From Candidatus Pacearchaeota archaeon UBA284 (lineage in GTDB: Archaea > Nanobdellota > Nanobdellia > Pacearchaeales > UBA284), in the NCBI GenBank assembly GCA_002499185.1, contig DAKN01000010.1, positions 4,546-35,389 of the forward strand: a stretch of DNA of 30,844 nucleotides. Direction: 5' to 3'. How positions within the stretch are numbered: position 1 is the first letter of the stretch; every line of letters starts with the position of its first letter. The notes below the pieces were generated by a model. The model was not told the DNA's origin. It saw only the letters and a list, made by a program, of their open reading frames with translations, and searched no databases. Positions 5,931 to 29,513 of the stretch are shown here, one piece after another. The position numbers and the translations under genes are program-made.

Positions 5931-5931
5931 T

Positions 5932-11709: not shown

Positions 11710-11711
11710 AG

Positions 11712-12737: not shown

Positions 12738-13236
12738 GTTTTTTAGATAGAGAGTAAGCGTATCTCATTGTATATTCCATTAAATCACTCCAATTATGGT
12801 GAATTTTTTGAATAGAGTTTAATTTCTGTAATTTTCTATCAGTGGCTTCGAATTTATTTTCTAATGGTCCAATTTTGAAATCTGTAGATAGAAATGCGGC
12901 AATTGCACTAATCTTAGGGTATCTTTTATTTTTTTTATTTTCTTTTAATTTTAGTAATTTAAAATAGCCAATAAATTTAGCTGTTATTAATTTTGCACCA
13001 GTTTCTTCTTTTGTTTCTCTTTTAGCAGTTTCTAATAATGTTTCACCATTTTCTATGTGACCAGTGGGTATATCCCATCCCCTCGGTACTTTAGTTAAGA
13101 GAATTTTTTCGTTTCTAAAAATAAACATTTTAATTGCCGTGAAATGAATGTTTTTTGGTATTAAGCTGGTAGGAATAAACTCAATAGAGCTTTTGGTTTC
13201 CATCCAGAAATCTTTTGGAAATTTATTGGAGTTCAT
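12712..13236 (-). CDS. NUDIX hydrolase
   Basis: 174 aa. Nudix box GHIENGETLLETAKRETKEETG. Confidence 0.8.
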   Translation of the reverse strand: MNSNKFPKDFWMETKSSIEFIPTSLIPKNIHFTAIKMFIFRNEKILLTKVPRGWDIPTGHIENGETLLETAKRETKEETGAKLITAKFIGYFKLLKLKENKKNKRYPKISAIAAFLSTDFKIGPLENKFEATDRKLQKLNSIQKIHHNWSDLMEYTMRYAYSLSKKHDKEKKDI

Positions 13237-14491: not shown

Positions 14492-14494
14492 TTA

Positions 14495-15772: not shown

Positions 15773-16713
15773 AGTGATATGCTATTTATGCCGTTTATTA
15801 TTACTTTTAATGTTTGCAAATCATCATCCATATTATAAGTTTTGTTAAGTATTTTTTCTATAGTTGATTTTAGCTGTAAGTAGTATAGTTCTTTTTCAGA
15901 AATATCTGTTTCATAAGATTTTTCAATGTCATTAATTCTCAAGACAAGTTTTTTTCTATTTAATAATAGCCTGCCATTTTTGTAATTAACTATAATTTCT
16001 TCTGATTTTGGCTCTATACAACTTACGTGAACTGTTCCATTTAATTTATTAATTATAATGGCTGCCGTGGCAGAGTGGTCTGTTTTGTAATCCCAAGGTC
16101 TTTTACCTCCAATTTCCCATTTTAATTTAATATGATCTATTGTTCCGATAAGCCATTGTAATACTGTTATTGTGTGCCATCCCATATTTATCCAACATCC
16201 CCCACCAGCGGCTTCAATGTCCCAATACCAACTATTTTTATTATCGTCTATTGTGAATGTATACGAAAAAAATAAAGGTGAACAAAGTTTATCAATTTCT
16301 TCTTTAGCTTTTAAAAATAAAGGATTATACTTTCTTTGTTGTAGTGTTGCAATAAATAAATTATGTTTTTTAGCAAGATTAATAATTTTTTTTCCATCTC
16401 GATACGTTAAGGCAAGGGGTTTTTCTTTAATGATATTTATCTTTCTATTTAAAGCTTCAATAGATATTTTTTCATGAAGATAGTTTGGAGTTGCAATAAT
16501 GACGATATCTAATTCTGTGGACAATAGTAATTCTTTATAATTTGTAAAAAAGGGCACACCCTTAATGGCGGCCCCAGCATTAGTATCGCAGATAGCGACT
16601 ATATTAACTATATTTTCTTTTTCTAATTCGAAAAGCGCCTCTAAGTGTTTTTTACCCTGGTTCCCTACTCCGATTAAGCCTATTCTCAATGGTTTATCAG
16701 TGGAATTTAACAT
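15769..16713 (-). CDS. Gfo/Idh/MocA-family oxidoreductase (first gene of sugar operon)
   Basis: 314 aa. RIGLIGVGNQGKKHLEAL, EKP motif IKEKPLALT. The -10 TATAAT (16720-16725) ends 6 nt before the ATG, so probably leaderless. Confidence 0.8.
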   Translation of the reverse strand: MLNSTDKPLRIGLIGVGNQGKKHLEALFELEKENIVNIVAICDTNAGAAIKGVPFFTNYKELLLSTELDIVIIATPNYLHEKISIEALNRKINIIKEKPLALTYRDGKKIINLAKKHNLFIATLQQRKYNPLFLKAKEEIDKLCSPLFFSYTFTIDDNKNSWYWDIEAAGGGCWINMGWHTITVLQWLIGTIDHIKLKWEIGGKRPWDYKTDHSATAAIIINKLNGTVHVSCIEPKSEEIIVNYKNGRLLLNRKKLVLRINDIEKSYETDISEKELYYLQLKSTIEKILNKTYNMDDDLQTLKVIINGINSISL

Positions 16714-16719
16714 GATGAT

Positions 16720-16748
16720 ATTATAATAATTTAAAAAAATTTGTCAAG
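16720..16748 (-). promoter_or_regulatory. sigma70-type promoter of the sugar operon (TTGACA-16-TATAAT), -10 abutting the ATG
   Basis: Minus-strand read TTGACAaatttttttaaattatTATAATatcatcATG. Confidence 0.5.
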
Positions 16749-16753
16749 CTATA

Positions 16754-16782
16754 TTGACAAAAATATACAAATAGTGCATAAT
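16754..16782 (+). promoter_or_regulatory. sigma70-type promoter TTGACA-17-CATAAT for the SPFH-like gene
   Basis: TTGACA (16754-16759), a 17-nt spacer, CATAAT (16777-16782). Its -35 is separated by 5 bp from the -35 of the divergent minus-strand promoter, forming the palindrome TTGTCAAgctataTTGACAA. Confidence 0.55.
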
Positions 16783-16872
16783 AATAGTGTTCTTTGGCGG
16801 AGCCAAAGGATATTACGTTTACGTAATTTGAATCCTTTACATTTAAATATTCAGTTTACAGGAGTGAAAGAA

Positions 16873-18174
16873 ATGGCAAGCGAGATAAAAAAAGATAATG
16901 TTGTTAAGGAAAACGAAAAGAAGGTTAACCAACTCGGACCATTTTTAGTTGGGCTGGGTGCAATTTTATTAGTAGTAATTTTTTCTATTTTTATTCTTCC
17001 CCACTTCATCGGTCTATTTGCAATAATTTTGTCGCCGATAATTATTTTAACGGTCGCATTTCTTGTTTTATGGTTTATCTGGGCACCGAATATGGTGATC
17101 GGAACATTTATCCCAGAAGGATATTGCGTAATAATAACCAGAGGACAAGAGGAGGGCCAATTCGTTAAGGCGATGATAAAATGGAAAGGATGTACTATTG
17201 ATGGCAAATACAATATTATCGAAATGAAGCCTGGAGAAAAAGAAATGGACTACGTTGGCTTCTGGAGCAGAAGCCATATTGGTATGAATTTTTATTTTTG
17301 GCCATTTGATAGGATCTTTGCGTATGACCTCAAATGGAAACAATTTACCCATGACGAGAAGGTTGTGGACAGAGATGAACATCTCTATCGCGTCCTTTTG
17401 AAGCCTTATGTCTATTACATCGACATTAAAAATGCCGAAGATAAGGACAAGGTACCTCAAAACATGGGTATTGTTGCAGAGATGAAGATAGTTAATCCCT
17501 ATAAGGCAACATTCAAGATTCAGAACTGGTATCGTGCAGTTTCCAATCTCATCATCGGAGACCTTCGTGACTTTATCAGAACCAAGTCCTATGAAGAGCT
17601 TATTAATTCTGAAAAGAGCAAAGACTCTTTAAATGATATGATATGGAAGCAGAGAATCGAGATTGGTTTGGCAAAAGAAATAGAAGAAAACTACGGAGTC
17701 AAAATTATTAAACTTACCGTTGTTGAGATAAGTCCAGCCGATCCGGAGTATTCCAGAGCCACACTGAGAAAAATTATTGCCGAGAAAAACAAAGCGGCAA
17801 TTGAAGTTGAAGCTGATGCTGAGGCAATCAAGAGATCCAAGGAAACTATGGGCTTGGCTACAAGGATGTTTCTTGACCATACTAAAATGAAAGAACAAAC
17901 CATGGTGGACCTCATTTCCAGCAATCCAGAAGAGTTTGAGAAAAAGTACGGCAAGATGTTCAATAAATGCCTTGACCTTGTTCAAAGGGAGATGGCACTT
18001 GCCAAAGGTCGGTTAATTGATGTAAGGACTGATACTGCTGGAATAAAAGGAGGAGATCCCCTACTTACACTGATTGCAGCCAACAGTATGTTCAATAATC
18101 AGTCTAGTGGTGGAAAGTCAACGTCTAAGAAAAGAAATAAAGACAATGACGATGAAGAGGAATGTCCATTCTAA
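16873..18174 (+). CDS. membrane-anchored SPFH (band 7/stomatin/flotillin-like) domain protein
   Basis: The track ORF begins at TTG 16741 inside the promoter. The likely true start is ATG 16873, preceded by AGGAGTGAAAGAA. Two N-terminal TM helices, then FIPEGYCVIITRGQEEGQFVKAM (SPFH-like core), and a C-terminal Ala/Glu-rich helix AEKNKAAIEVEADAEAIKRSKE. Confidence 0.5.
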   Translation: MASEIKKDNVVKENEKKVNQLGPFLVGLGAILLVVIFSIFILPHFIGLFAIILSPIIILTVAFLVLWFIWAPNMVIGTFIPEGYCVIITRGQEEGQFVKAMIKWKGCTIDGKYNIIEMKPGEKEMDYVGFWSRSHIGMNFYFWPFDRIFAYDLKWKQFTHDEKVVDRDEHLYRVLLKPYVYYIDIKNAEDKDKVPQNMGIVAEMKIVNPYKATFKIQNWYRAVSNLIIGDLRDFIRTKSYEELINSEKSKDSLNDMIWKQRIEIGLAKEIEENYGVKIIKLTVVEISPADPEYSRATLRKIIAEKNKAAIEVEADAEAIKRSKETMGLATRMFLDHTKMKEQTMVDLISSNPEEFEKKYGKMFNKCLDLVQREMALAKGRLIDVRTDTAGIKGGDPLLTLIAANSMFNNQSSGGKSTSKKRNKDNDDEEECPF

Positions 18175-18196
18175 ATAATGGAAACAGCCTCTTTTT

Positions 18197-18571
18197 TTAT
18201 TTCTTGTTTATTATCGTAGAGAATATAGACTTTTTGTTAATTTCAGCAGAATTTTCTTTTTCTTCTCTTCCCTCAATGTTATTTTCGGTAATAACTTCCT
18301 CTTCAGAAAGAACAGTTTTAATTTTTTCAGTAATTTCGATAGCCAAGTCTTCAGAAATTTGTAGTTTATCTTTTATTATTGGCTTTAAATTAGTCAACGA
18401 GATTTTTTCGTTAATTAAATTATTACAAATATCTATTAGGTAATCTAATCTATTTTTTTCAATATCACTAAATTCTTTTTCTTCCAAGTCAAAACAGTCA
18501 GTTACTCCAAGATTATTGGTTTTTATAAAATCAATAGCGGTATTTATTAAATCTATTTTTTTAGCAATCAT
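18197..18571 (-). CDS. hypothetical acidic protein (124 aa), co-transcribed downstream of the VirB6-like gene
   Basis: Starts 2 nt after the stop of the upstream gene. Glu/Asp/Ile-rich with no recognisable motif. Confidence 0.4.
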   Translation of the reverse strand: MIAKKIDLINTAIDFIKTNNLGVTDCFDLEEKEFSDIEKNRLDYLIDICNNLINEKISLTNLKPIIKDKLQISEDLAIEITEKIKTVLSEEEVITENNIEGREEKENSAEINKKSIFSTIINKK

Positions 18572-18573
18572 AA

Positions 18574-20649
18574 TTAATTTAATTTACCTGCCCATGCTTC
18601 ATTGGATAGATTTTCTATTGCTTGAGCCATTACTTTATCTTCTTTATTTGTGCTTGTTTTTAATGATGTAATTACATTTTTAACAGCTGTTCGATTTAAT
18701 TTATCTCTAGTGAAACCCCTTAAATCTTTAACATCAATAGTTGCAGTAGGAAGATGCTGTTTTATTAAATTAGCATAACCATTTTTAATGTTTTCTATGT
18801 CTTTTGCTGTTCCTTTTTTTAATTTTTCTTGTATTATTTTTATATTAGGGCCAGCAATAGATGATAAAATTTCAGGATTTAGATATGCTGAGGAATTTAT
18901 TATTTTTCCTCTTTCAGCTGGCGACATTGCTCCCATAACTTCAGAAGAGCTTTTGTTGATTAATTTTTGAGCATAATCTGGTCTAGCATTTGCAATATCT
19001 TTTATTTTAACATTAAATGTTTCGGCCCAATTTTTATTGCTAGCCAAATATTCTAATTCAGGTTTATCTAATTCTCCTCTTTTATTTAAAGCGTTAAAAG
19101 CAGCGGCTTTATCAATATTATTTGCTCTTGTTTCTGTTCCTGAAGTAGTGATTTTTTTAAGCTTATCATTAGAGAGATTTTCGAGTCTTTTCTGTGCCTC
19201 TTCAACTTCGCCGCTTATCTTAGCGTCGTATTCTCCACGTCTTGTAAAGCCGATGTTTTCTTTTATTTCAGATATTCTTTTGGCTGCTTTTTCTCTTCCC
19301 TCGGCTCCTAATCCTCCCATTGCTGCTCCGGTTAATCCTCCCATTGCTGCTCCTCTTATTCCAGCATCAGAATATCCTTGACTGATACCAGAAAGTCCGC
19401 CAACTGCGGCACCAGCAACCGTTCTTTTCCCTCCTTCAACCATCCATTCTCCGCCTGCTACCGCAGTTTCTTTTGCTTTACTTATAGCCCTGCCTCCAGT
19501 TCTTGCCCAAGCACCTTTGGCGAGACCCTCAACAGTCGAACCGATTTGTCCTCCCGCAGAGATAGAGATAAAGAATCCAGCGATTAAAATAATGAAGGGA
19601 GTAAGACACTTAATGGCTGAATTAACTAAGCTACCAATAATAGAGGTAAGACTTGTTGGATCAATAGTAAAGGTTATCGATGGAATTAGCATATTTGCGA
19701 GATAGATAGACATTCCAGCTGGTATTCCGATTACACACCATTGCATAAAACTTTCCCACCAGTCATCCCAATAAAGAACGCTGGGAAATATTTTTTTAAT
19801 ATAGTTTGACTGAGGAAATACTTTTGTTGCAAAAGCTATGGGAGAAGCTATTACTAATAGCCATAGAATTATAGATCTACCAAGAAAAAGTAATGCATAA
19901 AGAATGTAAATAAAGAAACTAATAAGGGCAAACATTAAAAATGCAAGTGATACAGCGAAAGAATTTAATATACTTAGAGTTGATGTTCCTATTGCATTGA
20001 CAAATTCTTTTTCTGCGACAGCTGTTACGGTAGTATTTATTCCTCCAGAAACAAAAGACTTTGTTAAAATATTTGATCCATCTATAATAAATCCACAAAT
20101 AATAGGGGTAAAATTAATCAAAAGAGCAATAATTATAAAATTGATTAAAGTTTTTTTAGCTTTATTTTCTTCTCTTCCTAATATTATGTTAATAGCTATA
20201 ATAACTAATCCAATAACTAATGCTGCGTTGGCTACGTTTCTTACTACTCCCCATCCAGTCGCTACAACTTTATTATATGTTTCACTTGCTGGATCAAAGT
20301 CTGTTGGACTTAGCCATGTTGATGTTGAATCTATAACCGTAGACAATATTACTTGTCCAAGATTTATAATTGTTGAACCAGCCATAGTTATCAGAGATCT
20401 AGCTGCTGTTATTATGCTATTGGTAATAACAGCGGTGGGGTTGTCAAGAAGATTATTAGTTGCATCTAATCCTAATAATTTTGAAATTTCAAGTGCTCCG
20501 GCTAATGGCCAAGTAGTAGGATTAGAAAGTAATAATATTTGAAGAGGATCAATAATATCTTCAGCAAAAACATTTCCCATTGGCGAAAGAAGAGTTAAAA
20601 AAATAAAAAGAGAACAAGCTATAATTTTTAATTTTTTAAAATTAAACAT
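18574..20649 (-). CDS. VirB6/TrbL-like polytopic membrane protein with Gly/Ala-rich C-terminal tail
   Basis: 691 aa. Signal peptide MFNFKKLKIIACSLFIFLTLLSPMGNVFA. A ~100-aa extracytoplasmic segment, then at least 5 TM helices in residues ~135-370 with a conserved-Trp loop (YWDDWWESFMQW). Then a ~320-aa hydrophilic tail containing GGLSGISQGYSDAGIRGAAMGGLTGAAMGGLGAEG and a 24-bp tandem duplication at ~19311-19358. Confidence 0.5.
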   Translation of the reverse strand: MFNFKKLKIIACSLFIFLTLLSPMGNVFAEDIIDPLQILLLSNPTTWPLAGALEISKLLGLDATNNLLDNPTAVITNSIITAARSLITMAGSTIINLGQVILSTVIDSTSTWLSPTDFDPASETYNKVVATGWGVVRNVANAALVIGLVIIAINIILGREENKAKKTLINFIIIALLINFTPIICGFIIDGSNILTKSFVSGGINTTVTAVAEKEFVNAIGTSTLSILNSFAVSLAFLMFALISFFIYILYALLFLGRSIILWLLVIASPIAFATKVFPQSNYIKKIFPSVLYWDDWWESFMQWCVIGIPAGMSIYLANMLIPSITFTIDPTSLTSIIGSLVNSAIKCLTPFIILIAGFFISISAGGQIGSTVEGLAKGAWARTGGRAISKAKETAVAGGEWMVEGGKRTVAGAAVGGLSGISQGYSDAGIRGAAMGGLTGAAMGGLGAEGREKAAKRISEIKENIGFTRRGEYDAKISGEVEEAQKRLENLSNDKLKKITTSGTETRANNIDKAAAFNALNKRGELDKPELEYLASNKNWAETFNVKIKDIANARPDYAQKLINKSSSEVMGAMSPAERGKIINSSAYLNPEILSSIAGPNIKIIQEKLKKGTAKDIENIKNGYANLIKQHLPTATIDVKDLRGFTRDKLNRTAVKNVITSLKTSTNKEDKVMAQAIENLSNEAWAGKLN

Positions 20650-20660
20650 ATTTTTATTAT

Positions 20661-20688
20661 ATTATAGCAACTTATTTTTATATGTAAA
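20661..20688 (-). promoter_or_regulatory. putative promoter of VirB6-like gene (TTTACA-16-TATAAT), -10 only 11 nt from ATG
   Basis: Minus-strand read TTTACAtataaaaataagttgcTATAATataataaaaatATG, with no SD. Confidence 0.4.
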
Positions 20689-20704
20689 TGCTGTTTACAA
20701 CAAA

Positions 20705-20739
20705 TAAAAAAACCGGGGATATTTTTAAATCGTCCCCGG
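20705..20739 (-). terminator. rho-independent terminator after small 2-TM gene copy 1
   Basis: Minus-strand read CCGGGGAcgatttaaaaataTCCCCGG followed by TTTTTTTATTT. The stop codon lies in the loop. Confidence 0.65.
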
Positions 20740-21027
20740 TCGTCGCGCATTCCCCATTGAGGGAGTGCGACGATAGTCGTATGCTCCTACCATTATTATC
20801 ACTACTCCAAAGATAATGATTATCATAGGAGTGGGCACTGAAGGAATTGCCGCTCTTGAAGTTCTTTGCTGTAAATCGTTTTCCAGTATTTTAGATGTTC
20901 TTTCAATGCCTGATGTGGTGGAAGCAGTAGATTTGTTGTCTTCAATCTGTGCAGTGTTCATGAATACGATACCGCCGATGACTGCGATTGCAATCCCGAT
21001 AATAATCAGAATGGTTGAGTTCTTCAT
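20725..21027 (-). CDS. small two-TM membrane protein, paralog copy 1 (true start MKNSTILI, not the TTG-initiated MRCLQ extension)
   Basis: ATG at 21027-21025 preceded by GAGGTG with a 7-nt spacer. Sequence MKNSTILIIIGIAIAVIGGIVFMNT, a polar linker, then a second TM IIIIFGVVIIMVGAY and an RR tail. The 5' ~130 nt are about 88 percent identical to 28758-28890. Confidence 0.6.
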   Translation of the reverse strand: MKNSTILIIIGIAIAVIGGIVFMNTAQIEDNKSTASTTSGIERTSKILENDLQQRTSRAAIPSVPTPMIIIIFGVVIIMVGAYDYRRTPSMGNARRPGTI

Positions 21028-21097
21028 TTGTAAACACCTCAATATGTAATTGTGATGAACTTTATAGTCTCTCCGAGGCTATTTAGGTTCTTTATAT

Positions 21098-21126
21098 ATT
21101 ATAATACCTATATTAAAATTTGTCAA
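21098..21126 (-). promoter_or_regulatory. consensus sigma70 promoter (TTGACA-17-TATAAT) for copy 1
   Basis: Minus-strand read cTTGACAaattttaatataggtatTATAATatat. Confidence 0.6.
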
Positions 21127-21128
21127 GA

Positions 21129-21157
21129 TTGTATGCTTCAAGCCAATAAAGTATAAT
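21129..21157 (+). promoter_or_regulatory. promoter TTGTAT-17-TATAAT for the pilin-fusion operon, -10 ends 8 nt before ATG
   Basis: TTGTAT (21129-21134), a 17-nt spacer, TATAAT (21152-21157), ATG at 21166. The -35 lies 2 bp from the -35 of the divergent copy-1 promoter. Confidence 0.5.
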
Positions 21158-21165
21158 TTAATTGT

Positions 21166-21501
21166 ATGTTTAATATTAAATTTACTCCCGAAACTTTTTT
21201 CATGCTTCCCTTCGCACTCGGACTTGATTTGATAGGAATTATTTTGGTTTGTTTCGGTTTAGATGATTTCGGAATAACAGATATCATCGGAATTGCATTT
21301 ATTAATACTTGGTTATTATTAAGAGGAAAAAAAGTTGTGCATCAACAAGGTAAAAAAGGAGCGATAAGTAGCATTAAAAAAGCTTTTACCGGCAAAACAA
21401 GTAAATTCTTTGCTGCACCGTTTCTAGAGTTGATTCCCTATGTAGGTTGTCTCCCCTTTTGGACAATATCGGTAATATTAAATTTAGACGAAGAACAATA
21501 A
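21166..21501 (+). CDS. small polytopic membrane protein (3 predicted TM), first gene of operon
   Basis: 111 aa. Hydrophobic segments FFMLPFALGLDLIGIILVCFGL, IIGIAFINTWLLL, FFAAPFLELIPYVGCLPFWTISVILNL, with a Lys-rich loop. Stops 2 nt before the next gene. Confidence 0.5.
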   Translation: MFNIKFTPETFFMLPFALGLDLIGIILVCFGLDDFGITDIIGIAFINTWLLLRGKKVVHQQGKKGAISSIKKAFTGKTSKFFAAPFLELIPYVGCLPFWTISVILNLDEEQ

Positions 21502-21502: not shown

Positions 21503-24193
21503 ATGGCATTTTCAGAAGCTGTAATCTATCTCTTCAATTTTTCTCTGGGCATGGCCGCTGTTTTAGCTTTCATTGTTATCGTTGCCGCCGGAATAAAAAT
21601 GGTTGAATCGCGTGGTAATCCTTCGGAAACACAAGATGCCAAACAAAAAATCATTAATTCTCTTCTCGGTTTAACAATTCTCCTAACTTCATATATTCTT
21701 CTAACAACAATTAATCCCGATTTGGTAAAAATCGAGAATATTTCTTTGGGCACGACCGGAATAACTATCCCTATAATTACCCCAGGTGATAATCCGGAAG
21801 ATGCCAAGAATTATCAGTTTGAAGAAATACCGATCGGAACACTAACCGAAGCAATCTTAATTGGTACTTCATCAACCAAGAATAAGGTCCCCTGTTACGA
21901 ATACGAGCATGAAGCTTACGATGATGACGGCCAACTAATCATCGCTAATACGGTTGATAAAAACAAAGACGGAAAGATAACCGAAAAAGATATTATTCTT
22001 AACAAGGACATGTTCTATTGCATCAAACTTTTAGATGATGCGATTAAGAAAAAAATAGAAGTTCATTTGAATACTTTGGTTGCTGGACAAAAACAGTTGG
22101 ATGCTTTAATGAAAACTAACTGTACCTGCAAGAGAGCGTATTACAGCTATCTTCCTCCCAATAAAGAAGAATACAAAATTGAAGGAACAGACTGTTCCGA
22201 TACCGGTTGCTACAGAGGCACTACTTACTGTCAGTGTTGTGGAGGCGCTAAGACCGGCTGTTCAAGACTAGACCCGTACAACACTTCCTGCAGTTCTTCG
22301 TCTGCGAATCCCTGTGAAATTGTCGGATACAATAACGGTAAAGAAGTTAAACAGTATCAATACGATACTTGTGATAATAGATTAGCGATAGAATGCAAAA
22401 AACAGGAAATAAAACAATTGATGGACGGTACCAAGCCGGATCAAATTTGCTACGAAGAAGTCAACGGTGCTCCCCCATTAATAGAAAAGGAGCAACCGTT
22501 TAATCTTTTCACCATTAAGTTAGGAATCGAAAGATTGCAAGAATTCAAGGATTATTATGACGATGAAATCAAGGCGCTGGAAGAAGCAGAATTGAAAACA
22601 AAGGAATACGGAGAAAAGCTAACCTTAGCCGAAGTATATAATAATGTTCAAACAAAAGACGATGTTACTGTCGGTGTGAAAGAATTTGAAACCGAAGTCT
22701 ATTACAATATTTCCAGGTATTGCCGAACCGCTAACTGCACAAAATCAGGATATGATCCTAAGCTTGGATATGTTTGTCCGGAAGAAGACAATGAATACGA
22801 GATGAGCCTTAAAAAGAGGGTTTGCAGGATGGATGTAACAAAAGAAGATGTTGAATCTGGTGATGTTTTTGCCGCAAGCTGTGAAAAAGCAACCGGACTT
22901 TTCGAGCTTGATGCATGCAAGGAATTTTATTCATATGCCGGAGATCCAGCAACCTTCTATTACAGTGAAAAATACAATTCTGATTATAAGGGAGAAAATC
23001 AGGTAATCGACAGTAGTGATAATAAATGTAACCTTGAAACTCAGATTATTGAAAATGAAATGTACGGAGGAGTCATCCGTATCGGAGAAACGGTTGATTA
23101 TACTCAAGCCTGGGGCAAAGAAGTTTCAAGAAGGATAGAAAAGCTTAAAGAAGAAGTTCAGGGAATGTTTAATACGGGTATGGCCATATCTAATTTTCCC
23201 GACAGCTGCAGCGCCGGAAATTGTACAAACAGCAGTCCCGACAAATTGAATATTTGTACTCATCCGAAATGTGATTGCGAGGGCGATTGCTGTTGCGCTT
23301 CTGTTGAAGGAACATCTTGCCAGTCCTGCGAACCGGCTGAAACTGTTTGCGAGGATCCGGAAGAAGAATTAATGGACCAAATGGGACATGCGAGCACTTG
23401 TAACGAAAAAGAAACAAAGGCGTACGGAGGCTGCAGTACTTGTTGTGAAGGTATTTGTCCGGAAGTTCCCCTGCCCGAAGAAGACTACTGGACCTGCCCT
23501 TACAGAAACCTCTGTAATTTAATGAAGAATCTATACCAAAGAAGGTCCATTCAAAGGTCTTGCCTTGAAGAGACAGAAAACACCAATGAAGAGAAATCAA
23601 GAGAGATTATGGAGAGTAAGGTAGGATACGTTCAGAAGATGGAAATGAGAGAAGTGATATTATTCGAAATGGCCCAGGTTAAAGAGATAAAGGACGATGT
23701 AGAATATGAATATGTTTCGACCACAAACTTAATTAGTCTTGTCTGTCCCAGTTATTTGCTTTGGGATCTTACTCCTCTTACCTGTAACGTGAGCTTGAAT
23801 AAGAAGCTTAACATTGAAAAGAGGTTTGATTTGTTTGATATGCTTAAAGATTCAAGAGAAAGACTGAACGGATGTGTTAAAGGATATACTATTCCCTACA
23901 AGCAGACCGCCGATAACGTCAGAGTTTTGAGCTGTTACGAGGCTTCTAATACTTCTAATACCGGACTGGTTGTTATTCCCGAATTCCCCTTCCTTAAATT
24001 AGGAGACCCAGTAGACGAAGATATTGCTGAAGGAATCAAATATATTAATTGTTATCCTTACAATAGCGATAATTTAACCGACCAAGAAAAGGAAGTCTGT
24101 TTCTATAACATCAATCGTACGGGAACCGCAGAGAATCCGGGCTGTTTAACAATTACTAAAAATTATATGGATAATTATTATTGCTGCCAATAA
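21503..24193 (+). CDS. VirB2/TrbC-pilin-like N-terminal helical hairpin fused to ~800-aa cysteine-rich extracellular domain
   Basis: 896 aa. N-terminus AVLAFIVIVAAGIKMVESRGNPSETQDAKQKIINSLLGLTILLTSYILLTTINPDL is shared with the next two genes. About 50 Cys, including CQCCGG, KCDCEGDCCCAS, CSTCCEGICPE. An EF-hand-like loop DKNKDGKITEKD. Confidence 0.6.
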   Translation: MAFSEAVIYLFNFSLGMAAVLAFIVIVAAGIKMVESRGNPSETQDAKQKIINSLLGLTILLTSYILLTTINPDLVKIENISLGTTGITIPIITPGDNPEDAKNYQFEEIPIGTLTEAILIGTSSTKNKVPCYEYEHEAYDDDGQLIIANTVDKNKDGKITEKDIILNKDMFYCIKLLDDAIKKKIEVHLNTLVAGQKQLDALMKTNCTCKRAYYSYLPPNKEEYKIEGTDCSDTGCYRGTTYCQCCGGAKTGCSRLDPYNTSCSSSSANPCEIVGYNNGKEVKQYQYDTCDNRLAIECKKQEIKQLMDGTKPDQICYEEVNGAPPLIEKEQPFNLFTIKLGIERLQEFKDYYDDEIKALEEAELKTKEYGEKLTLAEVYNNVQTKDDVTVGVKEFETEVYYNISRYCRTANCTKSGYDPKLGYVCPEEDNEYEMSLKKRVCRMDVTKEDVESGDVFAASCEKATGLFELDACKEFYSYAGDPATFYYSEKYNSDYKGENQVIDSSDNKCNLETQIIENEMYGGVIRIGETVDYTQAWGKEVSRRIEKLKEEVQGMFNTGMAISNFPDSCSAGNCTNSSPDKLNICTHPKCDCEGDCCCASVEGTSCQSCEPAETVCEDPEEELMDQMGHASTCNEKETKAYGGCSTCCEGICPEVPLPEEDYWTCPYRNLCNLMKNLYQRRSIQRSCLEETENTNEEKSREIMESKVGYVQKMEMREVILFEMAQVKEIKDDVEYEYVSTTNLISLVCPSYLLWDLTPLTCNVSLNKKLNIEKRFDLFDMLKDSRERLNGCVKGYTIPYKQTADNVRVLSCYEASNTSNTGLVVIPEFPFLKLGDPVDEDIAEGIKYINCYPYNSDNLTDQEKEVCFYNINRTGTAENPGCLTITKNYMDNYYCCQ

Positions 24194-24194
24194 T

Positions 24195-25517
24195 ATGAAT
24201 ATTAAAACAATAATCACTACATTATTTTTATTTCTTATTGCTTTCCCTGCTTTGGCGGCGATGCAATATCCGGAAATCGGCGGGATAACAATTTCCGAAT
24301 CAACCACGGCTGCCCAATACATTGTTTATTTCTTTAATTTAGCGATTGCTCTAGGTGCTTTTGCCGCCGTTATCATGATGGTTATGGCCGGCATCGAATG
24401 GGTTACCGCTGCCGGAAATCCGAGCAAGATAGAATCATCTAAAGGAAAGATTGCCAATACCCTTTTCGGGGTAGCCGTCCTCGTTGGCTGTTATTTGATT
24501 CTTAATACTATTAATGACCAACTGCTTACCATTAAAATAGATGATTTGAAATGTGAACACGGTATAACAGTCTCAGTCAAACAGGCTTCCGATGATAAAG
24601 TAAAGCAGAAATGTATCGATGCGAGTCAGACAAATATCGAGGACACGATTATAAGCACTTTGAGCTGGAATTTTCCCGAAGATTATTTACTAAGAGTTTA
24701 TCTCTATTCTGAACCGGACTATAAAGGAACGATAACTCAAATTGATTGCAAGAATGGTCCTTGTGATGGGAGTATTTCCGGAGCAAAATCACTTTATTTT
24801 TTACTGAACAACGCCGGAATTTATTTGTATGACGACAACAGTTATACCCCGAGGGTAAAAAGTTATCCCCTTTTTACTTCGACCAGCATATCTGATTTAT
24901 CTAAAACAAATAGCTTTGATAATTTTACCAGGTCAATAGAAATAATTAATCCCGATCAAGACAAACAGCAGCTTCAATATTCCGCTATTGTTTTTAAAGA
25001 TCAAAACTATCAAGGAAGATGTGCTTTTGTCGGTCAGTCTGTTCCTGATATGGATACTGGATATAGCGGATATTACACTGATGCTATAGGAGATGATGAA
25101 ATTTCTTCAATTATTGTGGCAAAATCTAACTTAAACCAGGAAGCAATCAGCCAAAAGAGAGGAGAAATCATATTGTACACCAAGGTTAATTGTGGAAAAT
25201 CAGATACCGACCCAACTAAGCAAATCAAGGCTTGTCATATACCGATAACCAGTGTTGCCAGTGGTCAGGTGGATATTTCTGAAAGTTGTTCTAATTTTGA
25301 GTCTGGCGATGAAGTAATGTCTTTTGAAATCACTGGTGCAGCCGGATTAATTCTAAGTACTTCCAAGAAACAAGCGGGAGACGAAAAAACATACTGTATG
25401 TATTTCAATAAAGAATCTTTAGGAGGAGGAACCTGTTTGTCTTCAATATTGGATACCCATATCTTTACGGTCGGAGGAACGACCCCGCAATCATATATAA
25501 TCGTACCGGAAAACTAA
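24195..25517 (+). CDS. secreted/anchored paralog: signal peptide + VirB2/TrbC-like module + beta/gamma-crystallin-like (Greek-key) ectodomain
   Basis: 440 aa. Signal peptide ...FPALA|AMQYPEIGG. Module LGAFAAVIMMVMAGIEWVTAAGNPSKIESSKGKIANTLFGVAVLVGCYLILNTIN. Ectodomain motifs VYLYSEPDYKGTITQI, SAIVFKDQNYQGRCAFVG ... DDEISSIIVA. Confidence 0.6.
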   Translation: MNIKTIITTLFLFLIAFPALAAMQYPEIGGITISESTTAAQYIVYFFNLAIALGAFAAVIMMVMAGIEWVTAAGNPSKIESSKGKIANTLFGVAVLVGCYLILNTINDQLLTIKIDDLKCEHGITVSVKQASDDKVKQKCIDASQTNIEDTIISTLSWNFPEDYLLRVYLYSEPDYKGTITQIDCKNGPCDGSISGAKSLYFLLNNAGIYLYDDNSYTPRVKSYPLFTSTSISDLSKTNSFDNFTRSIEIINPDQDKQQLQYSAIVFKDQNYQGRCAFVGQSVPDMDTGYSGYYTDAIGDDEISSIIVAKSNLNQEAISQKRGEIILYTKVNCGKSDTDPTKQIKACHIPITSVASGQVDISESCSNFESGDEVMSFEITGAAGLILSTSKKQAGDEKTYCMYFNKESLGGGTCLSSILDTHIFTVGGTTPQSYIIVPEN

Positions 25518-25518
25518 A

Positions 25519-26625
25519 ATGAAAAATATTAAAACAATAATTTGTCTTTCTTTATTTGGAATATTATTCATCTCCCCTGTTTTGGCAGCAATACAATATC
25601 CGGAAATCGGTGGCGTTAATATTAATGAAGAAGGAACTTCAGCGGCCACCTACGTTGTTTATCTTTTTAATCTATCTATTGCGGCTGGAGCTTTTATTGC
25701 CGGAGCGGTTTTGTTTGCAGCCGGAATTGATTACGTTTCTGCTCGTGGAGAGCCGGCCAAGCTTGATAGCGCAAAAAACAAAATAAAGAATGCCTTTTTG
25801 GGATTAACGATCCTTCTCGCTGCTTTCATGATTTTAAACATTATCAATCCTCAATTAACGAGCATTAAAATCAGCCAATTGGAAAAAACACCGGAAAAGG
25901 AAATAGTCATTCCCGAGGGTTCTGGTATTTATTTATATGATTTAACTAATTACGCTTCCAGTGAAAATGAAGAGCCGGTAAGGGTTACTAAAACCATGGG
26001 GGGCTTTTTAGAAAGCAATTTTAGTAATAAAGCTGAATCAATTAAATTCAATAATCCGACTGAAGAATTCAGCTTCGGCGCCGTTCTTTACGCTGCCAAA
26101 GAAGACAGTACTGAAGGTTCTGGCTCTGATTTAAGAGGAAATTGTTCGTATACACTCAGTAATGTTCCTGACTTAGACGTTGCGGTTAACGACAAGGAAA
26201 ACTATCCTCCGATTGGCCGGGATAAGCTGGCTTCAATGCTTGTTTTTAAAACTGATGGTGGTTCGGGAAGTATCAAGATTTATAATACTATTAATTGCAA
26301 AGACAGGACCGATGAATACGGGGTAACCTGTAAAAAGAAGAAATACGATGATTGCGAGATTACTGGTGGCAGCGGATTCAAAAATCTTAAAGAAGCTTGT
26401 CCTGATTTCAAGGGAGACATCATGTCGATAGAAGCCGGAGACAGTTTGGGTATATTATTCAAAGCCACAGGTGCTCAGGAAGCTGGAAGATGTCACTACA
26501 TTGAAACCAATGATACTGGCTGTGTTAATGTGGTTAAATACAGCTATGTTTTTAATATCAACGACAAGAAATACGAATCTAATTTTACCCCCAAATCTTT
26601 TGTAATCTTTTCTTTAGTAAAGTAA
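25519..26625 (+). CDS. secreted/anchored paralog: signal peptide + VirB2/TrbC-like module + divergent ectodomain
   Basis: 368 aa. Signal peptide ...SPVLA|AIQYPEIGG. Module AGAFIAGAVLFAAGIDYVSARGEPAKLDSAKNKIKNAFLGLTILLAAFMILNIINPQL. Shares SGIYLYD..NY with the previous gene. Its 3' end overlaps the convergent ksgA remnant by 41 nt. Confidence 0.6.
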   Translation: MKNIKTIICLSLFGILFISPVLAAIQYPEIGGVNINEEGTSAATYVVYLFNLSIAAGAFIAGAVLFAAGIDYVSARGEPAKLDSAKNKIKNAFLGLTILLAAFMILNIINPQLTSIKISQLEKTPEKEIVIPEGSGIYLYDLTNYASSENEEPVRVTKTMGGFLESNFSNKAESIKFNNPTEEFSFGAVLYAAKEDSTEGSGSDLRGNCSYTLSNVPDLDVAVNDKENYPPIGRDKLASMLVFKTDGGSGSIKIYNTINCKDRTDEYGVTCKKKKYDDCEITGGSGFKNLKEACPDFKGDIMSIEAGDSLGILFKATGAQEAGRCHYIETNDTGCVNVVKYSYVFNINDKKYESNFTPKSFVIFSLVK

Positions 26626-27535: not shown

Positions 27536-28654
27536 GTGGGATTTTTAATAGAAACCCTGCAACTCTGGATTATTCTTATTCAAAAAAAAATTAAGAAAAC
27601 TATCGGCAGAATCGGTAAAAAAAGGCTCTTTTTGGCCTTTTTCGTCCTTTTTTGCGTCTGGGGTAATGTTTTCCTTAATCAGGATATAAACACCTCTAAA
27701 ACGAGCGTTTCTAAGCTTCAGAATAGCTTCTTGAGTCTTGAATCAGCCTTCCAACCGATTACCAACAATCTAATCTTTGAACAGGGAAAAATCCTATCAG
27801 CTTTGCCCTCTCCCCTGTTTGTTTCATCAGAGACCTTGGGGTCTTTGTTTGATGAAGAGACAGCCAGCAAAGATATTATTAAACACATCGTGGAAAAAGG
27901 AGAAACCTTGTCTTCAATCGCTGAGTTGTACAATATTTCAATTGAAACCCTTCTCTTGGCTAACGAATTGGATACCACCAAAATCCAACCCGGCCAAGAG
28001 CTTTTAATTTTACCGGTTAACGGCATTATTCACATGGTGGAAAAAGGAGAAACTATTGCCGCCATTGCCAAGACATATAGTGCTGACAAAGAAGAGATTA
28101 TCAGCTATAACAGTCTATCTTCTTCTGGAGAAGTATATATCGGAGATGTTTTGATTATTCCTAACGGCAAGATGCCCAAACAGTCTACCCCGACAACCAA
28201 TACCACAACTCAAAGCTATGCCCAGGTTGTTTTACCGAATTCTTATTTAATTGTTCCGACAGTAGGAACGATTACTCAGGGAGCTCATTATTCATACAGT
28301 TCCAGCGGAAAGGCTTATTATACAGCAGTAGATATTTCTAATGCGATTGGAACGCCGGTAGTGGCGGCTGCAGGAGGACAGATACAGATTGCCAAGAATA
28401 AATGGCCTTACGGAAACTATATTACTATTCTTCACCCGAATGGAGTGGTAACTCTTTATGCCCATCTAAGTTTTATTGCTAGAGGAATAGAATCAGGAGT
28501 GACTGTTTCTCAGGGACAAGTTATCGGATATATGGGTAATACCGGCCGAACCGTCAGAGGAGTGGGAGGAACCGGATCTCATTTACACTTTGAAACCAGA
28601 GGTGCAGCTAATCCGCTAACCGCTTACGGACGAGGCAGCAAGATTTCTTACTAA
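27536..28654 (+). CDS. LysM-LysM-M23 family peptidoglycan endopeptidase
   Basis: 372 aa. The start is uncertain: the ORF begins at GTG with no SD, and the N-terminal signal anchor is KKRLFLAFFVLFCVWGNVF. Two LysM repeats (HIVEKGETLSSIAELYNISIETLLLAN, HMVEKGETIAAIAKTYSADKEEIISYN). M23 domain YTAVDI...GTPVVAAAGG...ILHPNGVVTLYAHLSF...GYMGNTGR...GSHLHFE. Confidence 0.8.
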   Translation: MGFLIETLQLWIILIQKKIKKTIGRIGKKRLFLAFFVLFCVWGNVFLNQDINTSKTSVSKLQNSFLSLESAFQPITNNLIFEQGKILSALPSPLFVSSETLGSLFDEETASKDIIKHIVEKGETLSSIAELYNISIETLLLANELDTTKIQPGQELLILPVNGIIHMVEKGETIAAIAKTYSADKEEIISYNSLSSSGEVYIGDVLIIPNGKMPKQSTPTTNTTTQSYAQVVLPNSYLIVPTVGTITQGAHYSYSSSGKAYYTAVDISNAIGTPVVAAAGGQIQIAKNKWPYGNYITILHPNGVVTLYAHLSFIARGIESGVTVSQGQVIGYMGNTGRTVRGVGGTGSHLHFETRGAANPLTAYGRGSKISY

Positions 28655-29102: not shown

Positions 29103-29136
29103 ATAAAAAAGAAAGGGTTATTCCCCTTCTTTTTTG
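29103..29136. terminator. bidirectional terminator hairpin between convergent genes
   Basis: AAGGG-ttattc-CCCTT, flanked by aaaaaagaaa upstream and cttttttg downstream. It overlaps the stop of the DksA/TraR gene. Confidence 0.45.
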
Positions 29137-29513
29137 CAGTTACATTCGTTGTTTTTGCAGTTGCAAGTATTACAGGTTTTAGCTTCGGGTAAGGCAATCA
29201 ATCTTTCTTCTGGTATTTCGCATTCGCAGCCTGGGCATCCGCAGTCGCATTTGCCATATGTCCCCTGCTCTATCTTCTCTAAGGCCAGGTTCACATCTCT
29301 TAGACTTTCTTCTAAAGAATGTTCAACCGGTAAAAGATTTTCATATTCCTCTACCTCATCAACTTTATCTTCCGGAGTGTCGGTAAGTTGAGGGAATTCT
29401 GTTTGCCAATTATCTTCACTGGTTTTCTTGGCAAAAGTCTTTAATTGTTCTTCGATGCTTGCTTTCTTTTTCTCTAAATCTTCTTTTCTTTGAGCGATAA
29501 ATTCTGGTGTCAT
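29118..29513 (-). CDS. DksA/TraR-family C4-type zinc-finger protein with extra Cys-rich tail
   Basis: 131 aa. N-terminal coiled coil, then LEKIEQGTYGKCDCGCPGCECEIPEERLIALPEAKTCNTC (DksA/TraR C4 signature), followed by the additional tail NCKNNECNCKKEGE. Confidence 0.65.
   Translation of the reverse strand: MTPEFIAQRKEDLEKKKASIEEQLKTFAKKTSEDNWQTEFPQLTDTPEDKVDEVEEYENLLPVEHSLEESLRDVNLALEKIEQGTYGKCDCGCPGCECEIPEERLIALPEAKTCNTCNCKNNECNCKKEGE

What the first reader, a model, noticed from the sequence alone, without database searches (positions are those of the whole stretch)
18574..20649. VirB6/TrbL-like channel protein without a VirB4/VirD4 ATPase in the window
The 691-aa protein has the VirB6/TrbL architecture: a signal peptide, an extracytoplasmic N-domain, five or more TM helices with a Trp-rich loop, and a long hydrophilic C-terminal extension with Gly/Ala-rich repeats (GGLSGISQGY...GAAMGGLTGAAMGGLGAEG). 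A perfect 24-bp tandem duplication (aatcctcccattgctgctcc-ggtt/tctt) encodes the AAMGGL repeat and could be length-variable. The gene lies next to the pilin-like operon but has its own promoter and terminator. No VirB4, VirD4, VirB11, relaxase or coupling protein occurs within 10 kb on either side. Either the ATPases are encoded elsewhere, or this is a pared-down, non-canonical apparatus.
Basis: partly seen in the sequence, partly recalled or inferred. Interest (0 to 1): 0.7.

Follow-up and report, generated by a model that had tools for sequence, protein, structure and literature searches.

The report
VirB6-like subunit of the known Patescibacteria T4SS
The 691-residue membrane protein is very probably the VirB6-type channel subunit of the chromosomal type IV secretion system already described in ultra-small Patescibacteria (CPR) bacteria. 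Its "missing" VirB4 ATPase lies about 4.7 kb beyond the left edge of the window, so this is an ordinary member of a known system.

Summary
The ORF at 18574-20649(-) is real. It has a signal-peptide-like N-terminus, about six transmembrane (TM) helices, an invariant Trp-rich loop, a Gly/Ala-rich disordered linker and a helical C-terminal domain.

Evidence that it is VirB6-like:
- Precomputed Pfam hits to TrbL_3 (PF19590).
- Conserved linkage to a VirB3/TrsD/VirB4 module, on the same strand within 9 kb in 45 of 51 related species with enough flank.

Local hmmscan and hhalign against canonical VirB6 and PrgH did not reproduce the sequence link.

No ATPase lies inside the window. However, a contig of the same population carries the identical gene and matches window 1-11197 at 99.99%. 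It has the four-gene module (157-aa protein, PrgI/VirB3-like, TrsD/TraC-like, VirB4-like) 3.2-6.5 kb past the window's left end. jag-yidC-rnpA-rpmH-dnaA follow it.

About 20 kb of housekeeping and sugar-modification genes split the locus in this lineage. No VirD4, VirB11 or relaxase homologue was found near the gene in 86 loci.

This matches the published Patescibacteria T4SS (PMC12102498): new member of a known kind, low interest. In passing: strain-level mosaicism of the pilin-like genes, with a sharp breakpoint at 21139.

The parts
18574..20649 (-). Extended VirB6-like (Pfam TrbL_3) polytopic membrane protein, 691 aa. Signal-peptide-like res 1-29; acidic N-domain 30-125; TM core 126-366; Gly/Ala linker 367-454; helical C-terminal domain 455-691.
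19552..20274 (-). Conserved TM core (res 126-366), including the invariant Trp-rich loop (res 289-304).
   Evidence: Mean column identity is 0.64 here against 0.35-0.36 in the N- and C-domains. Invariant residues include W294, W297, W304, P270 and R258. A core-only HMM hits all 83 related loci searched.
19288..19551 (-). Gly/Ala-rich, predicted disordered linker (res 367-454).
   Evidence: pLDDT is 28-43. Gly plus Ala make up 46% of residues 362-455, and that stretch is 61-103 aa long in the first 30 of the 58 aligned homologues.
19309..19356 (.). Tandem duplication of 24 nt (22/24 identical) encoding GAAMGGLT/GAAMGGLG.
   Evidence: Degenerate versions of both copies occur in P0002, P0008 and P0014. 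The gene is identical in four assemblies.
18577..19287 (-). Family-specific alpha-helical C-terminal domain (res 455-691).
20661..20688 (-). Promoter-like site TTTACA-16-TATAAT with an extended TG. The -10 hexamer ends 11 nt before the ATG, which implies a very short leader.
   Evidence: 11 of 12 matches. Sequence.
18197..18571 (-). 124-aa acidic soluble protein that starts 3 nt after the VirB6-like stop codon; probably co-transcribed.
   Evidence: A gene of 124-151 aa occupies this position in L004-L006 and L013.
16774..18174 (+). SPFH/Band 7 membrane protein, convergent with the VirB6-like operon. It is a conserved neighbour lying between VirB6 and the ATPase module.
   Evidence: PF01145, E 3e-10. 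Present in 37 of 80 related loci at this position.
20725..21042 (-). Small two-TM membrane protein (p105) with its own perfect-consensus promoter (21126-21098) and a hairpin plus U7 terminator (about 20712-20741).
   Evidence: Homologues sit upstream of VirB6 in L013 and L014.
21166..21501 (+). 111-aa membrane protein (p111) that heads the pilin-like operon.
   Evidence: Conserved directly upstream of the pilin-like genes in most related loci.
21503..24193 (+). 896-aa protein with an N-terminal VirB2-like T4SS_pilin domain and a large Cys-rich C-terminal region.
   Evidence: PF18895, E 3.5e-5, just below the gathering score. NCBIfam Mbov_0395 pilin-like family, E 6.5e-5.
24195..25517 (+). 440-aa protein with an N-terminal VirB2-like pilin domain.
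   Evidence: PF18895, E 4e-5. Conserved array in relatives.
25519..26625 (+). 368-aa protein with an N-terminal VirB2-like pilin domain.
   Evidence: PF18895, E 9e-5. NCBIfam pilin-like family, E 6.7e-4.
27536..28654 (+). LysM-LysM-Peptidase_M23 cell-wall hydrolase, a candidate functional analogue of VirB1.
   Evidence: LysM E 1e-24 and M23 E 2e-24. A conserved neighbour in most of the related loci. The literature link to VirB1-like proteins in Paceibacteria is in PMC12102498.
28773..29075 (+). Paralogue of p105. Its 5' 91 nt form an inverted repeat with 20954-21044.
   Evidence: Absent from L001, which has a 416-nt indel here.
29118..29513 (-). DksA/TraR-type zinc-finger protein, a conserved neighbour at the edge of the locus.
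   Evidence: PF01258, E 0.003. Conserved in many of the related loci.

Best explanation
The gene encodes the VirB6-type polytopic membrane subunit, of the 'extended VirB6' kind, of the chromosomal Patescibacteria-type type IV secretion system. The host is a Paceibacteria/Minisyncoccales (CPR) bacterium.

Shown:
- The protein has a VirB6-like helical membrane core.
- Across dozens of related species its gene belongs to a conserved locus. The usual order is DksA-like zinc finger, LysM-M23 hydrolase, ksgA (in the loci where genes were called), VirB2-like pilin-domain genes, p111, VirB6-like, a small acidic protein, SPFH, a ~150-aa protein, PrgI/VirB3-like, TrsD/TraC-like, VirB4-like ATPase. In the three loci that extend that far, jag-yidC-rnpA-rpmH-dnaA follow.
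- In this lineage the locus is split. PheST, a low-GC sugar-modification cluster and other housekeeping genes (about 20 kb) lie between SPFH and the ATPase module. That puts VirB4 just outside the window.

Inferred:
- As in R388, where TrwI/VirB6 forms the membrane-embedded base of the stalk above the VirB4 hexamers, this protein would form the cytoplasmic-membrane channel or platform. Through it, VirB4-powered pilin extraction and substrate passage would occur.
- The pilin-domain proteins would build or decorate a surface filament that contacts the host cell. The LysM-M23 enzyme would open the wall.
- With no relaxase or coupling protein nearby, the machine probably serves the epibiotic lifestyle (effector delivery to the host, or uptake of macromolecules from it) rather than conjugation.
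- The role and the sidedness of the C-terminal helical domain are unknown.
For: (1) Homologues number 172 or more. Nearly all those that carry a source name are labelled as CPR (a few as Pacearchaeota, Caldisericia or Tissierellia), they are mostly 600-730 aa, and many carry precomputed PF19590 TrbL_3. The query's own hit is unmarked, meaning E<=1e-5.

(3) Synteny. VirB4 is on the same strand within 1.4-9 kb (median 3.3 kb) in 45 of 51 GTDB species loci that have at least 8 kb of downstream flank. Called-gene Pfam assignments in L005 and L006 show PrgI, TraC-like and DUF87/AAA_10/P-loop_TraG.

(4) Same population. L007 is 99.99% identical to window 1-11197 and its contig carries the identical VirB6-like gene. 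At L007 14405-17710 it has the 157-aa, PrgI-like (E 1.9e-5), TraC-like and VirB4-like (P-loop_TraG, E 2.9e-28) genes. These are followed by jag, yidC, rnpA, rpmH and dnaA.

(5) pCF10 PrgJ (an MPF_FATA VirB4) hits the VirB4-like ORFs in 55 loci down to E 1.8e-47. R388 TrwK reaches only 4.8e-11.

(6) The literature describes exactly this system and context (PMC12102498; PMC12857230). It reports that T4SS genes are essential in a Saccharibacterium.
Against: - Local hmmscan against Pfam-A and NCBIfam found no TrbL/VirB6 family for the protein or for 58 homologues. Only 3 of 58 gave weak TrbL_4 hits at E 0.008. The precomputed PF19590 assignment could therefore not be reproduced here.
- hhalign of the family profile against pCF10 PrgH and against a 32-sequence TrwI/VirB6 alignment was not significant. 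A profile search of PDB sequences found nothing.
- A simple count of six TM helices after a signal peptide would put the basic C-terminal domain outside the cell, unlike A. tumefaciens VirB6. Topology is unresolved.
- The ATPase module comes from another assembly of the same population, not from the window's own record.
Confidence: 0.85

Rival explanations
1. The gene is part of an ordinary conjugative element (ICE or plasmid) whose remaining T4SS genes, coupling protein and relaxase lie just outside the window.
For: A VirB4 module does lie just outside the window. The VirB4 is most similar to the conjugative MPF_FATA type.
Against: - The locus is embedded among core genes: pheST, ksgA, and yidC-rnpA-rpmH-dnaA.
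- Much the same arrangement is conserved across most of 80 species-level genomes.
- phmmer with VirD4, relaxase and VirB11 queries from pCF10 and R388 found nothing within about 10 kb in 86 loci.
- No integrase or relaxase domain appeared in any Pfam scan.
- The literature reports that relaxases are absent from most Patescibacteria T4SS clusters.
Confidence: 0.03
2. The protein is an unrelated polytopic membrane protein, for example a CPR-specific transporter or envelope protein. It would merely sit next to T4SS genes, and the TrbL_3 label would be an over-extension.
For: No local Pfam or NCBIfam hit. hhalign against PrgH and TrwI profiles was not significant. The Foldseek E-values are not significant.
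Against: Two structure-comparison methods independently put TrwI/VirB6 at the top among natural proteins, covering 85% of the solved chain. Precomputed TrbL_3 hits exist for the query and for many homologues. Co-orientation and co-occurrence with VirB3/TrsD/VirB4 are tight. No other VirB6 candidate was identified among the genes scanned in the locus.
Confidence: 0.07
3. The VirB6-like and pilin half of the locus has been uncoupled from the ATPase half by insertions. It is decaying, or it has been repurposed to work without VirB4.
For: About 20 kb of unrelated genes separate the halves here, against a median of 3.3 kb in relatives. ksgA inside the locus carries three single-base insertions in the window.
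Against: All T4SS ORFs are intact in the window and in L007. The VirB6-like gene is nucleotide-identical in four assemblies. Relatives show graded spacing (L013 6.6 kb, L014 7.5 kb, L023 9.0 kb), so separation is tolerated. Dispersed T4SS genes are known elsewhere, for example in Rickettsia (cited).
Confidence: 0.05

Closest known systems
Patescibacteria (CPR) chromosomal T4SS, VirB6 component (Quinonero-Coronel et al. 2025, PMC12102498; Wang et al. 2023 Cell, cited therein)
   Same: The gene set matches: VirB4 of the MPF_FATA-related clade, TrsD, PrgI/VirB3, VirB6, VirB2-like pilin genes (PF18895) and LysM/M23 wall hydrolases in Paceibacteria. The chromosomal context matches too (dnaA, rnpA, rpmH, ksgA), and no relaxase is nearby.
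   Different: Here the locus is split by about 20 kb, so VirB6 and the pilin-like genes lie far from virB4, probably outside the paper's +/-20 CDS neighbourhood. The pilin-domain proteins are large fusions of 368-896 aa rather than small pilins. Whether the paper's VirB6 HMMs detected this particular family was not checked.
TrwI/VirB6 of plasmid R388 (PDB 7o3v, 8rt9, 8rtd; Pfam TrbL PF04610)
   Different: Identity is 12-15%. No sequence-profile similarity was detectable. TrwI is 342 aa and lacks the Gly-rich linker and the 240-aa helical C-terminal domain. R388 is a diderm conjugative system with VirB5, VirB7-11, VirD4 and a relaxase.
'Extended VirB6' proteins, with C-proximal hydrophilic domains as defined in the review PMC12857230. 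Monoderm examples such as TcpH of pCW3 are recalled from memory and were not tested.
   Same: The architecture matches: five or more hydrophobic helices plus a large C-proximal hydrophilic domain (for the definition; for this protein).
   Different: The C-terminal domain here has no detectable relatives beyond this protein family, apart from three shorter proteins that may be fragments of it. No sequence comparison with TcpH or the Rickettsiales VirB6 paralogues was made.
PrgH of pCF10 (the MPF_FATA VirB6 analogue)
   Same: Its role and gene position are the same: directly upstream of PrgI and the VirB4 homologue PrgJ. The associated VirB4 is closest to PrgJ.
   Different: PrgH is 266 aa. hhalign gave only a 30-column match at E 0.096, which is not significant.

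Membership tests
VirB6/TrbL superfamily | Polytopic cytoplasmic-membrane protein with five or more hydrophobic helices | tested here: met
   About six hydrophobic segments lie between res 133 and 367, plus an N-terminal signal-like segment. The AlphaFold model shows long helices with pLDDT 85-93.
VirB6/TrbL superfamily | Significant match to a Pfam TrbL-family profile (PF04610, PF19478, PF19590, PF19597) | tested here: inconclusive
   Precomputed annotation gives PF19590 TrbL_3 for this exact protein (unmarked, E<=1e-5) and for many homologues. Local hmmscan of the protein and of 58 homologues returned no PF19590 even at E<=10. Only 3 of 58 hit TrbL_4, at E 0.008. The local library may lack that model.
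VirB6/TrbL superfamily | Profile-profile sequence similarity to canonical VirB6 (TrwI family) or to PrgH | tested here: not met
   hhalign of A1 against A3 (32 TrwI/VirB6 sequences) gave E 0.23. A1 against the single pCF10 PrgH sequence gave E 0.096. The PDB sequence search found no VirB6. The reference profiles were shallow (50% identity or more, or a single sequence), so this is a weak negative.
VirB6/TrbL superfamily | Fold similarity to a solved VirB6 | tested here: met
VirB6/TrbL superfamily | Genetic linkage to virB4 and virB3 | tested here: met
   45 of 51 related loci with enough flank have VirB4 downstream on the same strand, preceded in nearly every case by PrgI-like and TrsD-like genes, at a median of 3.3 kb. 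In this population the distance is about 23 kb.
VirB6/TrbL superfamily | Conserved, functionally important Trp in an extracytoplasmic loop (recalled from work on A. tumefaciens VirB6; a lead only) | tested here: inconclusive
   W294, W297 and W304 are invariant in 58 homologues. No alignment to VirB6 could be made to show positional equivalence.
VirB6/TrbL superfamily | Assembles as an oligomer at the base of the stalk, above the VirB4 hexamers | not testable with these tools
   This needs cryo-EM or multimer modelling.
Patescibacteria-type T4SS (PMC12102498) | VirB4 related to the monoderm MPF_FATA class | tested here: met
   phmmer with pCF10 PrgJ hits the VirB4-like ORFs in 55 loci down to E 1.8e-47, against 4.8e-11 for R388 TrwK. 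No phylogeny was made.
Patescibacteria-type T4SS (PMC12102498) | TrsD-like and PrgI/VirB3-like genes adjacent to virB4 | tested here: met
   In L007 the order is PrgI-like (PF12666, E 1.9e-5, just under the gathering score), then a 210-aa protein with precomputed PF26593 TraC-like, then VirB4-like. L005, L006 and most related loci show the same. The equation of TraC-like with TrsD is my inference.
Patescibacteria-type T4SS (PMC12102498) | VirB2-like pilin genes (PF18895) in the locus | tested here: met
   Three consecutive genes have N-terminal PF18895 matches at E 3.5e-5 to 9e-5, all 2-4 bits below the gathering score. Precomputed weak or unmarked hits occur in relatives.
Patescibacteria-type T4SS (PMC12102498) | Chromosomal location near dnaA, rnpA, rpmH and ksgA | tested here: met
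   ksgA lies inside the locus at window ~26585-27418. jag-yidC-rnpA-rpmH-dnaA lie directly after VirB4 in L007, L005 and L006.
Patescibacteria-type T4SS (PMC12102498) | No relaxase or coupling protein in the cluster | tested here: met
   None appeared in the Pfam scans of the window and L007. phmmer with two VirD4, two relaxase and one VirB11 query gave no hit in 86 loci. These were single-sequence queries, so distant homologues could be missed, and the rest of the genome was not available.
Patescibacteria-type T4SS (PMC12102498) | Required for epibiotic growth | not testable with these tools
   Shown only for Southlakia epibionticum, as cited.
Conjugative MPF_FATA element (ICE or plasmid) | Relaxase plus type IV coupling protein, and a mobile-element context | tested here: not met
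   See and the housekeeping context.

The most novel reading that the evidence does not exclude
The fast-evolving, family-restricted helical C-terminal domain, tethered by a length-variable Gly/Ala linker, could be a Paceibacteria-specific innovation. It might take over a function that has no detected gene in this T4SS, such as substrate reception or coupling (VirD4-like) or a VirB8/VirB10-like scaffold reaching the wall or the pilin-fusion proteins. If so, this VirB6 would be a multifunctional hub in a minimal, non-conjugative T4SS. Its locus also undergoes strain-level exchange of pilin-gene haplotypes, with a shared breakpoint at 21139.
Probability: 0.1. Interest if true: 0.55.

Novelty: new member of a known kind. 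Interest (0 to 1): 0.2.

Why it matters
Mainly as a correction. The apparent "T4SS without an ATPase" is an effect of the window edge together with a lineage-specific split of a locus that is contiguous in most relatives.

The system itself has drawn recent attention: the Patescibacteria T4SS is essential in a Saccharibacterium and its substrate is unknown. But it has already been described at phylum scale.

This locus adds modest details:
- VirB6 and the pilin-like genes can lie more than 20 kb from virB4, probably beyond the +/-20 CDS neighbourhood used in the published survey.
- The Paceibacteria VirB6 is an "extended" form with a domain private to the family.
- The pilin-domain genes are strain-variable while the VirB6-like gene is invariant.

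Tried and rejected
- Local hmmscan of the protein and of 58 homologues against Pfam-A and NCBIfam found no TrbL/VirB6 family. This contradicts the precomputed PF19590 assignment, and I could not resolve why; the model may be missing from the local copy.
- A profile search of PDB chain sequences gave only chance coiled-coil and S100 hits to the C-terminal domain.
- hhalign against the single pCF10 PrgH sequence and against a TrwI/VirB6 alignment was not significant. The TrwI alignment came from a database search that returned only homologues of 51% identity or more, so the profile was shallow.
- The AFDB Foldseek library was unavailable.
- Looking up the coiled-coil protein at the right edge, in order to walk rightwards, failed because the gene runs off the window. 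The right flank beyond 30844 was therefore not examined.
- NCBI accessions for the protein could not be recovered, so I could not check whether it appears in the supplementary tables of PMC12102498.
- I asked whether the 157-aa and 124-aa neighbours could be the missing VirB8. From their sequences, both look acidic and lack a TM segment, so I rejected that.
- I considered repeat-mediated length variation of the AAMGGL repeat. No variation was seen among four assemblies.
Full report
**Observation**

The ORF at 18574-20649 on the minus strand encodes 691 aa. Hydropathy analysis shows:
- an N-terminal signal-peptide-like segment (res 1-29);
- an acidic region, res 30-125, with 9 D+E against 2 K+R;
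- about six hydrophobic helices between res 133 and 367.

The loop between the first two helices (GREENKAKK) is basic, which fits an N-out topology. In an alignment of 58 homologues (A1) the invariant positions cluster in the TM core. They include W294, W297 and W304 of the Trp-rich loop.

Res 367-454 are Gly/Ala-rich. AlphaFold predicts them with pLDDT 28-43, so they are probably disordered. Res 455-691 form an all-helical domain with pLDDT about 90.

The DNA repeat at 19309-19356 consists of two 24-nt units that are 22/24 identical, not perfect. It encodes GAAMGGLT/GAAMGGLG. Degenerate versions of both copies exist in homologues of about 44-66% identity, and residues 362-455 correspond to 61-103 aa in the first 30 aligned homologues. 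The gene is 100% nucleotide-identical in three other assemblies, so I saw no copy-number variation.

A promoter-like site with 11 of 12 matches and an extended TG lies at 20688-20661. Just upstream is a hairpin plus U7 that ends the preceding small gene (-15.6 kcal/mol, z -2.4). A 124-aa ORF starts 3 nt after the stop codon, so the gene has no terminator of its own.

**What the protein is**

Database homologues number 172 or more. Nearly all those that carry a source name are labelled as Paceibacterota, Minisyncoccales or Parcubacteria MAGs (a few as Pacearchaeota, Caldisericia or Tissierellia), and most are 600-730 aa. Many, including the identical database entry P0001, carry a precomputed Pfam hit to PF19590 TrbL_3.

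I could not reproduce that hit. Local hmmscan against Pfam-A and NCBIfam found no TrbL/VirB6 family for the protein or for any of the 58 homologues, apart from three weak TrbL_4 hits at E 0.008. The following were also negative:
- a profile search of PDB sequences;
- hhalign against pCF10 PrgH;
- hhalign against a 32-sequence TrwI/VirB6 alignment.

**Context**

Inside the window the neighbours are:
- a small acidic protein (18197-18571);
- an SPFH/Band 7 protein on the opposite strand;
- two small membrane proteins (p105 and p111);
- three consecutive proteins whose N-termini match the VirB2-like T4SS_pilin family PF18895 just under the gathering score;
- ksgA;
- a LysM-LysM-M23 peptidase;
- a DksA/TraR zinc-finger protein.

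The remaining predicted genes in the window that have Pfam assignments are housekeeping or sugar metabolism: PheS, PheT, Ham1, HAD, GFO/IDH/MocA, DegT, ATP-grasp, NUDIX, an FkbM methyltransferase, an aldolase, an aminotransferase and CYTH.

**Where the ATPase is**

In relatives L005 (42% identity) and L006, the gene is followed by a conserved series. First come the small protein and SPFH, then a ~150-200-aa protein. After that come a PrgI-like (VirB3-like) protein, a TraC-like 211-aa protein and a ~592-aa ATPase with DUF87, AAA_10 and P-loop_TraG domains. Last come jag, yidC, rnpA, rpmH, dnaA and dnaN.

I fetched 80 species-level loci from GTDB genomes and searched their ORFs with HMMs built from these components. 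Of the 51 loci with at least 8 kb of downstream flank, 45 have VirB4 downstream on the same strand. The distance is 1.4-9.0 kb, with a median of 3.3 kb.

For the window's own population I looked up the CYTH protein at the window's left end. This returned ENA contig k141_437579 (L007). It is 99.99% identical to window 1-11197, and its other end (L002) carries the identical VirB6-like gene. On this contig the module sits at L007 14405-17710, that is 3.2-6.5 kb beyond the window's left edge and on the same strand as the VirB6-like gene. It comprises a 157-aa protein, a PrgI-like protein (PF12666, E 1.9e-5), a TraC-like protein and a VirB4-like protein (P-loop_TraG, E 2.9e-28). jag-yidC-rnpA-rpmH-dnaA follow.

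The VirB4 gene is therefore about 23 kb from the VirB6-like gene. The closest GTDB relative (L013, 66% identity) has only PheS and PheT between SPFH and the module. The window strain additionally has a low-GC (25-30%) sugar-modification cluster and other genes there. The locus has thus been pushed apart by insertions.

phmmer with VirD4, relaxase and VirB11 sequences from pCF10 and R388 found nothing in 86 loci. pCF10 PrgJ hit the VirB4-like ORFs down to E 1.8e-47, and R388 TrwK only to 4.8e-11.

**Comparison with what is known**

This is the system described by Quinonero-Coronel et al. 2025 (PMC12102498). Its published features are:
- a Patescibacteria-specific VirB4 clade related to monoderm MPF_FATA systems;
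- TrsD, PrgI/VirB3, VirB6 and VirB2-like pilin arrays;
- VirB1-like hydrolases with LysM and M23 domains, associated with virB4 in Paceibacteria;
- proximity to dnaA, dnaN, rnpA, rpmH and ksgA;
- no relaxase in most clusters.

T4SS genes are essential for epibiotic growth in Southlakia epibionticum. The substrate is unknown; effector delivery and nucleic-acid uptake have both been suggested. A 2026 preprint reports tubular structures that may be T4SS pili at a Minisyncoccota-host interface.

The review PMC12857230 defines "extended VirB6" proteins as having five or more hydrophobic helices plus large central or C-proximal hydrophilic domains. This protein fits that description.

**The C-terminal domain**

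A phmmer search of 1.84 billion representative proteins with res 455-691 found only 18 hits at E<=1e-3. Most are 611-694 aa with the match at their C-terminal end, and seven are VirB6-like proteins already listed. Three are shorter (260-445 aa) and may be fragments. A C-domain HMM detects it in only 35 of the 83 loci searched, whereas the core HMM detects all 83. ORF lengths (stop to stop) have a median of 686 codons.

Most homologues are long enough to carry a C-terminal extension, but its sequence diverges fast and I found it in no other protein family. Whether it faces the cytoplasm is unresolved. It is basic, which argues for inside. A plain count of six TM helices after a signal peptide argues for outside.

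**Mechanism (inferred)**

By analogy with R388, the protein would form the oligomeric membrane platform above VirB3/VirB4. Pilin-domain subunits and substrates would pass through or along it. The LysM-M23 enzyme would open the wall, and the large pilin-domain fusions would form or decorate a host-contacting filament. None of this was tested here.

**Verdict**

The VirB6-like call is well supported (confidence 0.85). The "missing ATPase" is explained by the window edge together with a split locus. The apparatus is the known non-conjugative Patescibacteria T4SS. It is a new member of a known kind, and interest is low.

**Seen in passing**

- The VirB6-like gene, the 124-aa gene and the SPFH protein are identical between assemblies. 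The pilin-like proteins differ by 9-12% between the window and L002.
- L002 is identical to the window up to 21138 and 80-90% identical after that. L011, from the same sample, is the reciprocal: 81-87% identical up to 21139 and identical after it. L001 and L003 carry the window's junction unchanged.
- A 91-nt inverted repeat formed by the two p105 paralogues flanks the 7.7-kb segment that holds the pilin-like genes, ksgA and the LysM-M23 gene.
- ksgA in the window has three single-base insertions relative to L001 and L011.

Noticed in passing
window 21139 (intergenic, between the p105 promoter at 21126-21098 and the p111 start at 21166); segment 21140-28600: There is a sharp strain-haplotype breakpoint. 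Contig L002 is 100% identical to the window from 8501 to 21138, then only 80-90% identical across the pilin-like operon (proteins 88-91% identical). Contig L011, from the same sample, is the reciprocal: 81-87% identical up to 21139 and identical afterwards. L001 and L003 carry the window's junction unchanged. This suggests recombinational exchange of pilin-gene haplotypes next to an invariant VirB6-like gene.
   Followed up: partly
window 20954-21044 and 28771-28861: A 91-nt inverted repeat (88% complementary) is formed by the 5' ends of two paralogous small membrane-protein genes: p105 at 20725-21042(-) and its paralogue at 28773-29075(+). Each has a similar TTGACA...TATAAT promoter. The repeat brackets the 7.7-kb segment that holds the pilin-like genes, ksgA and the LysM-M23 gene. 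The second paralogue is missing from L001, which has a 416-nt indel there. Inversion was not tested.
   Followed up: partly
window 26585-27418 (-), ksgA/rsmA: The 16S rRNA dimethyltransferase gene is broken into three ORFs by single-base insertions at 27093 (A), 27053 (T) and 26967 (G), relative to the intact genes in L001 (263 aa) and L011. The frame is restored after the third insertion. This is either an assembly or sequencing error or a compensated frameshift.
   Followed up: partly
window ~600-16700: About 16 kb of the window, plus about 3 kb beyond it, lies between the SPFH gene and the VirB4 module. It includes a low-GC (25-30%) sugar-modification cluster at ~11000-16700 with GFO/IDH/MocA, DegT aminotransferase, ATP-grasp, NUDIX and HAD genes. 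The closest relative, L013, has only pheS and pheT at this position. This looks like an insertion-prone site inside the T4SS locus.
   Followed up: partly
window 21503-26625 (+): The three VirB2-like pilin-domain proteins are large fusions of 896, 440 and 368 aa. The first has a very Cys-rich C-terminal region, and relatives reach 1200 aa (L006). The C-terminal parts have no Pfam match.
   Followed up: no
window 20649-20688 (-): The -10 hexamer of the promoter-like site ends only 11 nt before the ATG of the VirB6-like gene, and I see no obvious Shine-Dalgarno sequence in the stretch between them. This implies a nearly leaderless mRNA.
   Followed up: no
L007 14405-14878 and window 18197-18571: Two small, acidic proteins without a predicted TM segment (157 aa and 124 aa) flank the split locus at conserved positions. 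One lies before the PrgI-like gene and the other after the VirB6-like gene. Neither has a family match. Neither looks like the VirB8 homologue that the literature reports as missing from most Patescibacteria T4SS loci.
   Followed up: partly
The precomputed Pfam annotations (PF19590 TrbL_3, PF26593 TraC-like) are not returned by the local Pfam-A hmmscan for the same sequences. The two resources appear to hold different model sets.
   Followed up: partly
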